Part shown: positions 1-2,520 of the stretch, piece by piece
Position numbering within the stretch: position 1 is the stretch's first letter
Layout: the number at the start of each line of letters is the position of its first letter
Origin: Escherichia phage ID21
DNA: 6,068 nucleotides
Reading direction: 5' to 3' (one strand)
Sequence record: NC_007818.1
The notes under the pieces: model-generated
Database searches by the model: none
What the model saw: the letters and a program-made list of their open reading frames with translations, nothing else
Told to the model about the DNA's origin: nothing
Made by a program: the position numbers and the translations under genes

Positions 1-66
1 TTGTTGACATTCCCTAAATCCTTATGAGACTCTTGCTTCAGCGAAATGACGCAGGAGTCTTTGCTT

Positions 67-435
67 ATGAAACCCGCACATCGCTTAACCCATCCGGTTC
101 TCGGTTCTTGGTTGTTTAAGTGTCCTGTTTATATCCGTTACGAACACCTTCATCATGGTCGTCTTATTAAGGTTCGTGCTGTTCGCGATTTATCCCCTCG
201 CCAACAGCTTATTGCTAACCCTAAAAATTGCTTTGACGTTGTTATTGCTGAGATTGATGTTACTTATGGCTCCCTCACTTGGTTTGATTATGAGCATGAG
301 GAATATGACGAGTTTGAGCCTGATGTTATAAAAGGCCTCGTTAACTATATTGAAATCCCTCATGTTATCCGTTCTGAGGAAGATCCTTCTGTTGATATTG
401 ATGATATGGATTGGCTTTATGAAATTGCGGAGTAA
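67..435 (+). CDS. Hypothetical protein (122 aa; 129 aa if started at in-frame ATG 46) with basic N-terminal half and strongly acidic C-terminal half, encoded in the expanded H-A intergenic region
   Basis: ORF track 46..435. AGGAG at 53-57 lies 9 nt upstream of ATG 67. Third codon positions are predominantly T (CGT, GTT, GAT, CCT, ATT), as in the capsid and scaffold genes. No similarity to any phiX174 protein I can recall. Confidence 0.45.
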   Translation: MKPAHRLTHPVLGSWLFKCPVYIRYEHLHHGRLIKVRAVRDLSPRQQLIANPKNCFDVVIAEIDVTYGSLTWFDYEHEEYDEFEPDVIKGLVNYIEIPHVIRSEEDPSVDIDDMDWLYEIAE

Positions 436-760: not shown

Positions 761-2245
761 ATGGCTACTGAAATCTTCTCTGATGTTGTTAAGTCTGTTT
801 GGTCGCACGCTACGGCTAAGCATTCTCATCTTCGTATGGCTGTGCAGGTTGATAACCGTAGTCGTCTTCTTTCTGATTTGGTTTACCAGCTGGAAAAGCG
901 CCTCTCTGAAGAGACTCATCTGGATGATGAGACTTATGCTCTTTATGAATCTCAAACTGGTCTCTTGGAGGACCATATGGCGCTGGTTCGGAAGTGTGCT
1001 GCCCAACTTGATAATAGTAACACTATAGACCACCGTACTCCTTTGGACTCCGAATGTGTTTTCCTCTTTGAGATGATTTGCCCCGGTGTTCGCTACGGTA
1101 AAACATTGAATTCTCTTTGGACCAAGTATGTTGCCCAGTGGCCTGAGAAGTTGATTCGTCAGGAGCTTGATATGGTTAAGCCTTTATCCTTTAAGGATGA
1201 GGTTGCCAAGTACATGGAGAAAATGCAGGAAAAGACACGCAAAAATCGCATGACTCAGAAAGTAATTAATGAGATGCGTATTGCTCACCAGAAAGGCTGG
1301 TTCTTCGTATTTGATACGTTGACCCTTGCCGATGACCGTTTGCAGGCTTTTAATGAAAACCCAAATGCTCTTCGTGATTATTTCAGGACTGTTGGTCGAG
1401 CTGTTCTGCGCGCTGAAGGCCGCTCGGTTAAGGATTCCTACAACGACTGCTATCGCTATCTTTGTGTGCCGGAGTTTGGAGGTCAGCATGGCCGTCTTCA
1501 TTGGCACGTTGTGCATATGGTGCGGACTCTTCCTTTGGGAAGTCACGACCCTAATTTCGGTCGCAAGGTACGTAATTATCGCCAGATTAACTCGTTCCGT
1601 GGCATGTGGCCTTATGGCTTCACGCAACCGATAGCTGTACGCTATCAACATGATGCTTATTCTCGCAAAGGTTGGCTGTGGCATGTTGACAAATCAGGAA
1701 AAGCAATGCAGAGTAAGCCTTATCAGGCGGTCGCATGGTATGTGACCAAGTATGTGGCTAAGCAGTCTGACCAGCGTCAGAAAGCTATTACCGAGAGACA
1801 AAAGAAATGCAAGAATCCACTTATGGCAATATGTCTGAAAAAGGAATTCAGAGTTCGCAGCAGCCGGAAGCTCGGAATGGAGTTGCCGTCGATGGCGCAT
1901 CTCAGCAACAAGGTACTTCTGGAACTGAGTCGAATCAGCTTCGATTCCAGCCCTCTGTATCAGATAGTGAAAGAGAACGCCAAAAAGCAATTGACCTTGA
2001 ACATCGGCGCGCTGCCTTTACACGTCATTTTGGATGTGCGCCCGGAAGTGAGAAGTATGTTGAAAAATATCCGTCGTTTGATGAAAAAGACACCCGAGTT
2101 CAATTGGCAGAGTTCTATCGCTTCAATGACGGTCACCTTAAAAAATGGGGATATTTCTAATGAAGCACGTCAATACATTATTGATGCAGGAATTACGCCT
2201 TCTGATTTGCGAGCTAAAGCGACTCAAACTTTCGGCGGTAAGTGA
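761..2245 (+). CDS. A: Replication initiation protein A (rolling-circle HUH endonuclease), 494 aa
   Basis: ORF track 761..2245. Contains AWYVTKYVAK with two tyrosines (Y327, Y331) matching the phiX174 gpA active-site YVAKYVNK motif as I recall it, plus an HUH-like LHWHVVH. Central and C-terminal regions align with recalled phiX174 gpA (GWFFVFDTLTLADDRL, NPNALRDYFR, DPNFGRKVRN). Contains the origin at 1004-1033. Confidence 0.95.
   Translation: MATEIFSDVVKSVWSHATAKHSHLRMAVQVDNRSRLLSDLVYQLEKRLSEETHLDDETYALYESQTGLLEDHMALVRKCAAQLDNSNTIDHRTPLDSECVFLFEMICPGVRYGKTLNSLWTKYVAQWPEKLIRQELDMVKPLSFKDEVAKYMEKMQEKTRKNRMTQKVINEMRIAHQKGWFFVFDTLTLADDRLQAFNENPNALRDYFRTVGRAVLRAEGRSVKDSYNDCYRYLCVPEFGGQHGRLHWHVVHMVRTLPLGSHDPNFGRKVRNYRQINSFRGMWPYGFTQPIAVRYQHDAYSRKGWLWHVDKSGKAMQSKPYQAVAWYVTKYVAKQSDQRQKAITERQKKCKNPLMAICLKKEFRVRSSRKLGMELPSMAHLSNKVLLELSRISFDSSPLYQIVKENAKKQLTLNIGALPLHVILDVRPEVRSMLKNIRRLMKKTPEFNWQSSIASMTVTLKNGDISNEARQYIIDAGITPSDLRAKATQTFGGK
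1004..1033 (+). other. Viral (+) strand origin of rolling-circle replication; predicted gpA nick between G1010 and A1011
   Basis: CAACTTGATAATAGTAACACTATAGACCAC matches the phiX174 30-nt origin CAACTTG/ATATTAATAACACTATAGACCAC (recalled) at 27 of 30 positions; the three differences are in the AT-rich middle. Confidence 0.85.
1214..2245 (+). CDS. A*: A* protein: in-frame internal restart of gene A (start uncertain: ATG 1214, 1223 or 1250)
   Basis: phiX174 makes A* from an internal in-frame ATG about 25 residues before the conserved GWF motif. Here in-frame ATGs lie at 1214, 1223 and 1250 before GWFFVF, and AAGGATGAGG (1193-1202) is an SD-like element upstream of 1214. Confidence 0.45.
   Translation: MEKMQEKTRKNRMTQKVINEMRIAHQKGWFFVFDTLTLADDRLQAFNENPNALRDYFRTVGRAVLRAEGRSVKDSYNDCYRYLCVPEFGGQHGRLHWHVVHMVRTLPLGSHDPNFGRKVRNYRQINSFRGMWPYGFTQPIAVRYQHDAYSRKGWLWHVDKSGKAMQSKPYQAVAWYVTKYVAKQSDQRQKAITERQKKCKNPLMAICLKKEFRVRSSRKLGMELPSMAHLSNKVLLELSRISFDSSPLYQIVKENAKKQLTLNIGALPLHVILDVRPEVRSMLKNIRRLMKKTPEFNWQSSIASMTVTLKNGDISNEARQYIIDAGITPSDLRAKATQTFGGK
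1807..2160 (+). CDS. B: Internal scaffolding protein B (117 aa), nested in gene A in another frame
   Basis: ORF track 1807..2160. C-terminus ...RVQLAEFYRFNDGHLKKWGYF parallels recalled phiX174 gpB ...RIQPAEFYRFHDAEVNTFGYF. Stop TAA 2158-2160 overlaps the K start as TAATG. Confidence 0.85.
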   Translation: MQESTYGNMSEKGIQSSQQPEARNGVAVDGASQQQGTSGTESNQLRFQPSVSDSERERQKAIDLEHRRAAFTRHFGCAPGSEKYVEKYPSFDEKDTRVQLAEFYRFNDGHLKKWGYF

Positions 2246-2348
2246 CCCGGATTTTTCTCAGGAGAAGATTCATGCTGAGCTCAACTCGTTATTATGCAAG
2301 TTATCGCGCTACTTTGACGAAGCAGCTGATGTTTCTTACAAAGGCTGA
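2160..2348 (+). CDS. K: Protein K (62 aa), overlapping the end of A and the start of C
   Basis: ATG 2160-2162 overlaps the B stop. Product MKHVNTLLMQELRLLICELKRLKL... resembles recalled phiX174 gpK (...IKQELLLLVYELNRSGL...). The ORF-track start at 2145 is an upstream in-frame ATG and less likely. Confidence 0.65.
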   Translation: MKHVNTLLMQELRLLICELKRLKLSAVSDPDFSQEKIHAELNSLLCKLSRYFDEAADVSYKG

Positions 2349-2478
2349 CTTTACGAATGATGATGAAAAGTGGCTTAACGCTTTTGGTAATCTTCTTCGT
2401 CAGTGGTTTGAAATTGAACAATGGAAAGGCAATCATAAAAAATTGCTTGACGACCTGAAAAAACGTAATTACATTTGA
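2242..2478 (+). CDS. C: DNA maturation/packaging protein C (78 aa from GTG 2242; 68 aa if started at ATG 2272)
   Basis: ORF track 2242..2478. Shares ...DEEKWLN...WF with recalled phiX174 gpC. GTG 2242 overlaps the A stop as GTGA, mirroring the phiX174 ATGA A-stop/C-start overlap. ATG 2272 has a canonical AGGAG (2260-2264) 7 nt upstream, so the true start is ambiguous. Confidence 0.75.
   Translation: MTRIFLRRRFMLSSTRYYASYRATLTKQLMFLTKADFTNDDEKWLNAFGNLLRQWFEIEQWKGNHKKLLDDLKKRNYI
2447..2475 (+). promoter_or_regulatory. Sigma70-type promoter upstream of gene D (P_D candidate): TTGACG(2447-2452)-17 nt-TACATT(2470-2475)
   Basis: 5/6 match at -35 and 4/6 at -10 with ideal 17-nt spacing, lying in the 3' end of gene C about 45 nt upstream of the D start, where phiX174 has its D promoter. 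Confidence 0.5.
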
Positions 2479-2520
2479 GTTGTTTCAAAGGTTTTTACCC
2501 ATAAATGTTAGGAGTATGTT

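What the first reader, a model, noticed from the sequence alone, without database searches (positions are those of the whole stretch)
2145..2280. Dense triple-frame overlap at the B/K/A/C junction using TAATG and GTGA stop-start overlaps
The B stop and K start share TAATG (2158-2162), and the A stop and the candidate C GTG start share GTGA (2242-2245), while K reads through both in the third frame, so all three + frames are coding around 2242-2245. The phiX174 equivalent is ATGA. Here the C start is either non-canonical GTG (conserved architecture) or ATG 2272 with a strong AGGAG (better initiation signal), an unresolved ambiguity.
Basis: partly seen in the sequence, partly recalled or inferred. 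Interest (0 to 1): 0.4.

Follow-up and report, generated by a model that had tools for sequence, protein, structure and literature searches.

The report
Known microvirus B/K/A/C gene junction
This is the already-annotated junction of genes A, B, K and C of the alpha3-like coliphage ID21, and comparison with 28 related sequences shows that gene C starts at the ATG at 2272 rather than at the GTG overlapping the end of gene A, so the proposed three-frame overlap is not real.

Summary
The window is Escherichia phage ID21 (Alphatrevirus). Its deposited gpC (68 aa, from ATG 2272) and gpK (62 aa, from ATG 2160) match the window exactly.

The stated GTG/ATG ambiguity can be resolved by comparison. In 29 distinct alpha3-like sequences, the 26 nt between the A stop and ATG 2272 evolve as K-only coding sequence. 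The dN/dS-like ratio there is 0.05 in the K frame and 1.5 in the C frame. From 2272 onward the constrained frame becomes C (0.05).

GTGA, AGGAG and ATG 2272 are invariant in all 29. GTG 2242 has only a mismatched GGCGG placed too close to it.

GTGA is the positional counterpart of the phiX174/G4 ATGA, but an 18-nt clade-specific indel separates the A stop from C's start. The A/K/C triple overlap is therefore absent here. Only nt 2160 is read in three frames (A codon, B stop, K start). A rare GTG-initiated isoform cannot be excluded.

Ordinary and already known.

The parts
761..2245 (+). Gene A (replication initiator, 494 aa); stop TGA at 2243-2245
   Evidence: ORF. Annotated as gpA at the equivalent position in all relatives. 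The C-terminal ...GGK* aligns with G4-like gpA.
1807..2160 (+). Gene B (internal scaffolding protein, 117 aa), nested in A in another frame; stop TAA at 2158-2160
   Evidence: Pfam Phage_B PF02304, E = 3e-47. Annotations.
2147..2151 (+). GGGGA, Shine-Dalgarno-like element for K, 8 nt before ATG 2160, inside B and A
   Evidence: Duplex energy with the 16S 3' tail is -5.5 kcal/mol. Invariant in 29 sequences.
2158..2162 (+). TAATG: B stop and K start share one nucleotide (2160). That is the only nucleotide read in all three frames (A codon AAT 2159-2161, B stop, K start).
   Evidence: Among 29 distinct sequences, 22 have TGATG and 7 have TAATG. TGATG is found in phiX174, G4, ID2 and ID52.
2160..2348 (+). 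Gene K (62 aa here), third frame. It overlaps A (2160-2245), is alone at 2246-2271, and overlaps C (2272-2348).
   Evidence: Exact match to gpK of phage ID21, YP_512381.1. phrog_8511, E = 1e-39. dN/dS-like ratio is 0.05 in the K-only stretch.
2242..2245 (+). GTGA: the A stop preceded by G. It is the positional counterpart of the phiX174/G4 ATGA (A stop/C start) but very probably not a working start here.
   Evidence: It lies 82 nt from the K start, as in phiX174 and G4. Invariant in 29/29. The C frame downstream of it is unconstrained.
2246..2271 (+). K-only coding spacer between the A stop and the C start. It contains the clade-specific 18-nt indel (boundaries ambiguous, anywhere from 2242-2259 to 2246-2263).
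   Evidence: Both K and C protein alignments place a 6-residue gap here in phiX174 and G4. It has the highest density of variable sites (0.42). Parsimony changes by C-frame position are 1/20/7.
2260..2264 (+). AGGAG, Shine-Dalgarno sequence of gene C, 7 nt before ATG 2272, inside K
   Evidence: Duplex energy -7.4 kcal/mol; 3.4% of window positions reach -7 or lower. Invariant in 29/29 although 2261 and 2264 are K third positions. AGGAGAAAATTC in alpha3 versus ATGAGAAAATTC in phiX174.
2272..2478 (+). Gene C (DNA maturation protein, 68 aa)
   Evidence: Exact match to gpC of phage ID21, YP_512382.1. Pfam Phage_C PF12025. phrog_1465, profile positions 5-72. dN/dS-like ratio 0.04-0.05 from codon 2 onward.

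Best explanation
The window is coliphage ID21 (genus Alphatrevirus). The region is the clade's version of the classical Bullavirinae B/K/A/C junction.

Gene K starts at ATG 2160. That start shares one base with the B stop (TAATG) and has a GGGGA element 8 nt upstream. K is therefore probably made partly by ribosomes that finish B and restart on the spot (inferred).

Gene A ends at TGA 2243-2245.

Gene C starts 26 nt later, at ATG 2272. It is served by its own strong, optimally spaced AGGAG inside the K frame and is initiated independently of A termination (inferred).

The GTG in GTGA is the positional relic of the ATGA stop/start overlap of phiX174 and G4. In the alpha3 clade an 18-nt indel has pulled the A stop and the C start apart. 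As a result, 2246-2271 encodes K only and there is no A/K/C triple overlap.

Shown: the motifs, their conservation and the frame-specific selection pattern. Inferred: translational coupling of K to B, and de novo initiation of C.
For: Identity. Whole-window megablast gives 93% to ID32 and 84-92% to other alpha3-like phages. Exact-sequence look-up finds the 68-aa gpC and 62-aa gpK of phage ID21. The 78-aa GTG form and the 67-aa K form from ATG 2145 are in no collection.

Annotation. All 12 relatives with annotated genes place C at the ATG equivalent to 2272, as do the automated calls on 21 metagenomic contigs.

Selection, 29 distinct sequences. In 2246-2271, parsimony changes by C-frame codon position are 1/20/7, against 25/3/127 in the C body (Fisher p = 2e-17). 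Counting sites instead, 6 of 11 versus 3 of 66 fall at C position 2 (p = 1.4e-4).
- K frame, 2246-2271: 18 synonymous, 4 nonsynonymous changes (ratio 0.05).
- C frame, 2245-2271 (nine codons): 5 synonymous, 23 nonsynonymous (ratio 1.5).
- C frame, 2275-2318: ratio 0.05. K frame there: 0.50.
The 10-residue extension has 16 variants (for example L/P/R/H/V at residue 6 and F/Y/S/C at residue 10). The first 10 residues of C have 2 variants. TCT to AGT at 2256-2258 keeps Ser in K. Variable-site density is 0.42 in the spacer, 0.18 in A+K and 0.27 in K+C.

Initiation signals. AGGAG gives -7.4 kcal/mol with 7-nt spacing. GTG has only a mismatched GGCGG (-6.3) a few nt away. AGGAG is invariant although two of its bases are K third positions. 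There is no stable RNA structure (z = +1.55).

Homology. Pfam Phage_C scores 38.3 bits without the extension and 37.8 with it. The PHROG profile aligns Met1 of the 68-aa form to profile position 5.

Literature. -1 and -4 overlaps are the canonical termination-reinitiation geometry. Coupling in E. coli falls 40-80% at +14 nt and is nearly lost at +38 nt (PMC10666635). K and C proteins are detected in phiX174 infection (PMC8125068).
Against: No experiment on this phage was available, and Kodaira 1992 and Rokyta 2006 are not held.

GTGA is invariant, and no relative has a stop codon in the C frame between 2242 and 2272. Both facts are uninformative, however. G2242 is a K second position. Only two single-base routes to a stop exist, both at K second positions.

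An unconstrained, disordered N-terminal tail could still be translated.

phiX174 uses the equivalent weak GGCGG context for its accepted ATG start.

The G4-like positive control was underpowered: 10 sequences, with changes of 0/3/5 in the first 10 C codons.

The parsimony counts use an NJ tree built from the same 379 nt and ignore recombination, so the p-values are approximate.
Confidence: 0.85

Rival explanations
1. GTG 2242 is used as a minor, additional start. Ribosomes terminating A at TGA 2243-2245 reinitiate on the overlapping GTG and make a rare 78-aa gpC with a basic, unconstrained N-terminal tail. In that case 2242-2245 would be read in three frames.
For: GTGA is a canonical -4 termination-reinitiation geometry (PMC10666635). 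It is invariant in 29/29 sequences. The C frame is open from 2242 in every relative. phiX174 and G4 start C at exactly this position, behind the same GGCGG/GGTGG context.
Against: The extension evolves with a dN/dS-like ratio of 1.5 and shows radical replacements. A is known from phiX174 biology to be a low-abundance protein (my own knowledge), so few ribosomes terminate there. GTG is a weaker start codon and its GGCGG lies too close to it. No database or gene caller reports the 78-aa form.
Confidence: 0.1
2. GTG 2242 is the main or only start of gene C, conserving the phiX174 architecture. ATG 2272 would then be just an internal methionine.
For: Positional homology of GTGA with ATGA. The frame is open.
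Against: Purifying selection in the C frame begins at 2272, not 2242. AGGAG is invariant and optimally spaced for ATG 2272. The family profiles do not cover the extension. All annotations disagree with this reading.
Confidence: 0.03
3. K starts at the upstream ATG 2145 (as annotated for phage St-1). That would give a 67-aa K and a 16-nt stretch (2145-2160) read in three frames (A, B, K).
For: ATG 2145 is in frame with K and invariant in 29/29 sequences. St-1's record annotates K from it. An A-rich tract precedes it.
Against: Pairing with the anti-Shine-Dalgarno sequence is only -2.5 kcal/mol, against -5.5 for ATG 2160. The ATG is forced by B's Lys-Trp codons and A's Asn-Gly codons, so its conservation says nothing. 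phiX174 and G4 have no ATG there, whereas the -1 overlap start is shared by all three genera. The K family profile starts at MKHV. Ten of eleven K annotations use the -1 start. No site varies in 2138-2158, so the claim cannot be tested by substitutions.
Confidence: 0.05

Closest known systems
Escherichia phage ID21 and the other alpha3-like phages (Alphatrevirus): annotated genes A, B, K, C
   Same: gpC (68 aa) and gpK (62 aa) are identical to ID21. Gene order, frames, the -1 B/K overlap, the 26-nt gap between A stop and C start, and AGGAG-7 nt-ATG are the same in all relatives.
   Different: Nothing of substance. ID21's K is 62 aa because the TAA at 2319-2321 of most relatives is GAA here. 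Relatives have K of 53 or 60 aa.
phiX174 (Sinsheimervirus) and G4 (Gequatrovirus) A/K/C junction, with ATGA at nt 133-136 and 1720-1723
   Same: The B stop and K start overlap by one base. K reads across the A stop and into C. The distance from K start to the A-stop motif is 82 nt. The A C-terminus ...GGK* matches that of the G4-like phages; phiX174's gpA tail was not translated.
   Different: In phiX174 and G4 the C start ATG overlaps the A stop, giving a 4-nt stretch read in three frames. Here the motif is GTGA, an 18-nt indel follows it, and C starts 30 nt downstream at a codon equivalent to phiX174 D5/G4 N5. The sequence equivalent to the phiX174 start context ATGAG is AGGAG, which acts as the Shine-Dalgarno sequence.
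Prokaryotic -1 (TAATG/TGATG) and -4 (ATGA/GTGA) stop-start overlaps used for translational coupling by termination-reinitiation (Huber et al. 2019, 2023)
   Same: The B/K junction has the -1 geometry with a Shine-Dalgarno-like element inside the upstream gene. The A stop has the -4 sequence form.
   Different: Coupling was not measured here. At GTGA the downstream frame shows no coding constraint, so only the form of the motif is present.

Membership tests
Alphatrevirus (alpha3-like Bullavirinae) A-B-K-C gene block | Genome-wide nucleotide similarity and collinearity with alpha3-like phages | tested here: met
   100% coverage at 90-93% identity to ID32, NC3, WA13, WA45 and NC35, and 84-85% to alpha3, phiK and St-1. 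gpC and gpK are identical to phage ID21.
Alphatrevirus (alpha3-like Bullavirinae) A-B-K-C gene block | Proteins belong to the Phage_B and Phage_C families and to the K family | tested here: met
   PF02304 at 3e-47 and PF12025 at 1e-9, both above their curated cut-offs. phrog_8511 at 1e-39 for K and phrog_1465 at 4e-31 for C.
Alphatrevirus (alpha3-like Bullavirinae) A-B-K-C gene block | K is a real, selected coding frame, not merely an open frame | tested here: met
   In the K-only stretch 2246-2271 there are 18 synonymous and 4 nonsynonymous changes (ratio 0.05, binomial p = 1e-10).
-1 stop/start overlap with termination-reinitiation coupling (B to K) | Stop and start share one base (TAATG/TGATG), with a Shine-Dalgarno-like element inside the upstream gene | tested here: met
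   TAATG at 2158-2162. Among 29 distinct sequences, 22 have TGATG and 7 have TAATG. GGGGA lies 8 nt upstream, -5.5 kcal/mol.
-1 stop/start overlap with termination-reinitiation coupling (B to K) | Translation of the downstream gene depends on translation of the upstream gene | not testable with these tools
   This needs a reporter or a premature-stop experiment. It is inferred only from geometry and from PMC10666635.
-4 stop/start overlap (ATGA/GTGA) joining A and C, as in phiX174/G4 | An NTGA motif at the upstream gene's stop | tested here: met
   GTGA at 2242-2245, invariant in 29/29.
-4 stop/start overlap (ATGA/GTGA) joining A and C, as in phiX174/G4 | The downstream protein-coding constraint begins at the overlapping start codon | tested here: not met
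   The C-frame ratio is 1.5 between 2245 and 2271 and 0.05 from 2275 on. C-frame second positions take 20 of 28 changes upstream of 2272 and 3 of 155 downstream.
-4 stop/start overlap (ATGA/GTGA) joining A and C, as in phiX174/G4 | A usable ribosome-binding context for the overlapping start | tested here: inconclusive
   The mismatched GGCGG gives -6.3 kcal/mol but ends about 1-4 nt from GTG. phiX174 has the same context before its accepted ATG.
Three-frame (A/K/C) coding overlap of phiX174 nt 133-136 | The same nucleotides are translated, or used as a stop, in all three forward frames | tested here: not met
   A ends at 2245 and the constrained C frame starts at 2272, so 2246-2271 is K only. 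Only nt 2160 is shared by an A codon, the B stop and the K start.

The most novel reading that the evidence does not exclude
The Shine-Dalgarno sequence of gene C in the alpha3 clade (AGGAG, 2260-2264) and the phiX174/G4 start context (ATGAG) are one homologous sequence differing by a single base.

On this reading, an 18-nt indel split the two jobs of the ancestral ATGA. The A stop stayed upstream, as GTGA. The former C start became the ribosome-binding site for a new ATG four codons downstream. The reverse direction is equally possible: a deletion that turned a Shine-Dalgarno sequence into a start codon and created the famous triple overlap.

The indel may itself derive from the B/K junction 100 nt upstream.

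This would be a natural case of decompressing (or compressing) an overlapping stop-start, with a switch between coupled and independent initiation.
Probability: 0.4. Interest if true: 0.35.

Novelty: already known. Interest (0 to 1): 0.12.

Why it matters
It matters little beyond housekeeping. The analysis confirms, using evolutionary evidence rather than the habit of choosing the longest ORF or the first ATG, that the database start of gene C in alpha3-like phages is right. It also shows that the textbook phiX174 A/K/C triple overlap is not a universal feature of Bullavirinae.

Two modest by-products follow:
- The 26-nt K-only stretch gives unusually clean evidence that the non-essential gene K is under strong purifying selection in this clade.
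- The junction offers a natural comparison of coupled (ATGA) and uncoupled (26-nt gap plus strong Shine-Dalgarno) expression of the same essential gene. That could interest people who refactor or decompress phiX174-type genomes.

Tried and rejected
Searches that added little:
- Protein-pattern scans of metagenome and genome contigs with gpC found no relatives.
Two real alpha3-like contigs (L127, L140) were recovered from it.
- The word-based protein search returned a single cluster.
- The full HMMER scan of 1.84 billion representatives returned only that cluster plus phiX174 spike-in/adapter chimeras.
- tblastn against the phage collection showed no lineage between alpha3-like and G4/phiX-like. 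No outgroup therefore exists to say whether the 18 nt were inserted or deleted.

Tests that did not settle anything:
- A G4-like positive control (10 distinct sequences) showed the expected excess of C third-position changes only weakly (0/3/5).
- RNA folding of 2205-2310 showed less structure than shuffled sequence (z = +1.55), so a structural or regulatory hairpin explanation was dropped.
- The direct-repeat finder found nothing in 2100-2320.
- The absence of stop codons in the GTG-to-ATG stretch was considered as support for the GTG start. It was rejected because only two single-base changes could create one, both at K second positions.

Papers not held: Rokyta et al. 2006 could not be read.
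Full report
**What is in the sequence**

- Gene B (1807-2160) ends in TAA 2158-2160.
- ATG 2160-2162 shares base 2160 with that stop (TAATG). It opens a third-frame ORF of 62 codons ending in TGA 2346-2348.
- Gene A (761-2245) ends in TGA 2243-2245, and the base before it makes GTG 2242-2244.
- A TAA in the C frame (2239-2241) lies directly before that GTG, so the GTG is simply the first possible start after a stop.
- AGGAG is at 2260-2264 and ATG at 2272-2274, with 7 nt between them.

**What the window is**

The whole window aligns over 100% of its length at 90-93% identity with the alpha3-like coliphages ID32, NC3, WA13, WA45 and NC35, and at 84-85% with alpha3, phiK and St-1.

An exact-sequence look-up shows that the 68-aa protein from ATG 2272 is gpC of Escherichia phage ID21 (YP_512382.1). 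The 62-aa protein from ATG 2160 is its gpK (YP_512381.1). The 78-aa form from GTG 2242 and the 67-aa K form from ATG 2145 exist in no collection. The window is therefore ID21, genus Alphatrevirus, and the region is already annotated.

**How relatives are annotated**

All 12 alpha3-like records that carry gene annotations start C at the ATG equivalent to 2272. These are ID32, WA13, alpha3, St-1, NC3, WA45, NC35, NC29, NC28, ID62, phiK and Lilleven.

Ten start K at the one-base overlap with the B stop. St-1 starts K at the upstream ATG equivalent to 2145. Lilleven annotates neither B nor K.

Automated gene calls on 21 further metagenomic contigs also give a 68-aa C.

In phiX174, K is 51-221, C is 133-393 and A ends at 136. 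In G4, K is 1638-1808, C is 1720-1974 and A ends at 1723. The K start is thus 82 nt before the ATGA in both, exactly as 2160 is 82 nt before GTGA here.

**Resolving GTG versus ATG by comparison**

I assembled 61 alpha3-like copies of 2100-2478, of which 29 are distinct. GTGA, AGGAG and ATG 2272 are invariant in all 29, so simple conservation does not discriminate. The pattern of substitutions does.

Between the A stop and ATG 2272 (2246-2271), 11 of 26 sites vary. That is the highest density in the region:

| Stretch | Variable-site density |
|---|---|
| A+B | 0.12 |
| A+K | 0.18 |
| K only (2246-2271) | 0.42 |
| K+C | 0.27 |
| C only | 0.35 |

Parsimony changes by C-frame codon position are 1/20/7 in that stretch, against 25/3/127 in the body of C (Fisher p = 2e-17). 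By sites, 6 of 11 versus 3 of 66 fall at C position 2 (p = 1.4e-4). Against the adjacent K/C overlap alone, p = 0.005. C second positions are K third positions.

The dN/dS-like ratios are:

| Frame and stretch | Synonymous | Nonsynonymous | Ratio |
|---|---|---|---|
| K frame, 2246-2271 | 18 | 4 | 0.05 |
| C frame, 2245-2271 (nine codons) | 5 | 23 | 1.5 |
| C frame, 2275-2318 | 21 | 3 | 0.05 |
| K frame, 2275-2318 | 8 | 16 | 0.50 |

The ten-residue extension has 16 different sequences among the 29, with radical changes (residue 6 L/P/R/H/V, residue 10 F/Y/S/C, residue 3 R/Q/L). The first ten residues of C have two. One lineage changed TCT to AGT at 2256-2258. This keeps Ser in K while changing two residues in the C frame.

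The constrained frame therefore switches from K to C exactly at 2272.

No relative has a stop codon in the extension. That is uninformative, because only two single-base changes could make one and both fall on K second positions.

Caveats: the counts are parsimony counts on a neighbour-joining tree built from the same 379 nt, and recombination is ignored.

**Initiation signals**
- AGGAG pairs with the 16S rRNA tail at -7.4 kcal/mol with ideal spacing. Only 3.4% of positions in the window reach -7.
- GTG 2242 has a mismatched GGCGG (-6.3) ending a few nt before it.
- K's ATG 2160 has GGGGA 8 nt upstream (-5.5).
- ATG 2145 has essentially nothing (-2.5).
- Of the nine K third positions in 2246-2271, six vary. 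Two of the three that never vary lie inside AGGAG.
- The RNA around the junction is less structured than shuffled controls (z = +1.55).
- The Pfam Phage_C score does not improve with the extension (38.3 versus 37.8 bits).
- The PHROG profile aligns Met1 of the 68-aa form to its position 5.

**Relation to phiX174 and G4**

Independent alignments of the K proteins and of the C-frame translations both place a six-residue gap in phiX174/G4 directly after the A stop. The A C-terminus ...GGK* is shared with the G4-like phages, so GTGA corresponds to ATGA as the A stop. phiX174's gpA tail was not translated in that call.

Downstream of the indel, alpha3's AGGAGAAAATTC differs from phiX174's ATGAGAAAATTC by one base. 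The alpha3-clade Met (2272) aligns with phiX174 D5/G4 N5. Because GA flanks both ends of the indel, the alignment cannot say whether ATGA corresponds to GTGA or to AGGA.

Functionally, the A stop remained upstream, and the sequence equivalent to the old C start context now serves as the Shine-Dalgarno sequence. The direction of the change cannot be determined. No fourth lineage of gpC exists in the phage collection or in 1.84 billion protein representatives.

**How it most likely works**

B is abundantly translated. Ribosomes ending at UAA 2158-2160 can restart at AUG 2160, the canonical -1 geometry. That geometry is conserved in all three genera and described as a termination-reinitiation configuration in PMC10666635.

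A ends at 2245. The 26-nt gap to AUG 2272 lies in the range where coupling in E. coli is largely lost: a 40-80% drop at +14 nt and near zero at +38 nt. C is therefore most likely initiated independently at its strong Shine-Dalgarno sequence, inside the K frame. K then ends inside C at 2346-2348.

These translation steps are inferred, not shown. K and C proteins have been detected by mass spectrometry in phiX174 infection (PMC8125068), but I found no such data for alpha3-like phages.

**Verdict**

The motifs are real, and the B/K overlap is a genuine conserved feature. The claimed three-frame coding at 2242-2245 is not supported. Only nt 2160 is shared by an A codon, the B stop and the K start.

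The GTG/ATG ambiguity resolves in favour of ATG 2272, in agreement with the existing annotation of this very phage. A rare GTG-initiated isoform cannot be excluded (about 0.1).

The finding is ordinary and already known. The evolutionary note about the split ATGA is a modest, unproven extra.

Noticed in passing
window 2319-2348: The end of K is polymorphic in the clade. Most relatives have TAA at 2319-2321 (K = 53 aa). The window has GAA there, synonymous ACT to ACG in C, so K runs to TGA 2346-2348 (62 aa). Eight other sequences have 60 aa and one other has 62 aa. The K family profile (phrog_8511) has 53 positions. G4-like ID204 also has a shortened K.
   Followed up: partly
window 2145-2147: An in-frame ATG lies 15 nt upstream of the K start and is used as the K start in the St-1 record. 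It is invariant, but it is formed by B's Lys-Trp codons (AAA TGG) and A's Asn-Gly codons, and it has no Shine-Dalgarno sequence (-2.5 kcal/mol). If used, 2145-2160 would be read in three frames.
   Followed up: partly
window 2249-2263 versus 2149-2163: The clade-specific insert plus Shine-Dalgarno sequence (GGATTTTTCTCAGGA) matches the B-stop/K-start junction (GGATATTTCTAATGA) at 12 of 15 bases, exactly 100 nt upstream. Chance matches at this stringency are expected 0.26 times per window. The insert may be a diverged local copy of that junction. This is weak, post hoc evidence, and the direct-repeat finder did not report it.
   Followed up: partly
window 2408-2436 and 2447-2475: There are two sigma-70-like promoter matches on the + strand inside the 3' end of gene C (TTGAAA-17-AATCAT and TTGACG-17-TACATT), just upstream of gene D. 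This is where phiX174 has its D promoter (the phiX174 comparison is from my own knowledge).
   Followed up: no
window 2479-2520; L008 (NC29) 2480-2712; L005 (NC3) 2477-2549: The spacer between C and D varies widely in length among close relatives: 42 nt here, about 230 nt in NC29, about 70 nt in NC3 and 26 nt in alpha3.
   Followed up: no
window 46-435 and 525-701: Two ORFs (129 aa and 58 aa) lie in the long H-A intergenic region typical of alpha3-like phages. They match no PHROG family, and similar ORFs are annotated as hypothetical proteins in Lilleven and MG945254.
   Followed up: no
proteins P0018-P0029: Apart from P0002, the alpha3-like cluster itself, every gpC 'homologue' in the 1.84-billion representative library is a phiX174 gpC fused to Illumina-adapter translations (RSTLFPYTTLFRS) or duplicated. 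These are sequencing spike-in chimeras in public assemblies.
   Followed up: yes
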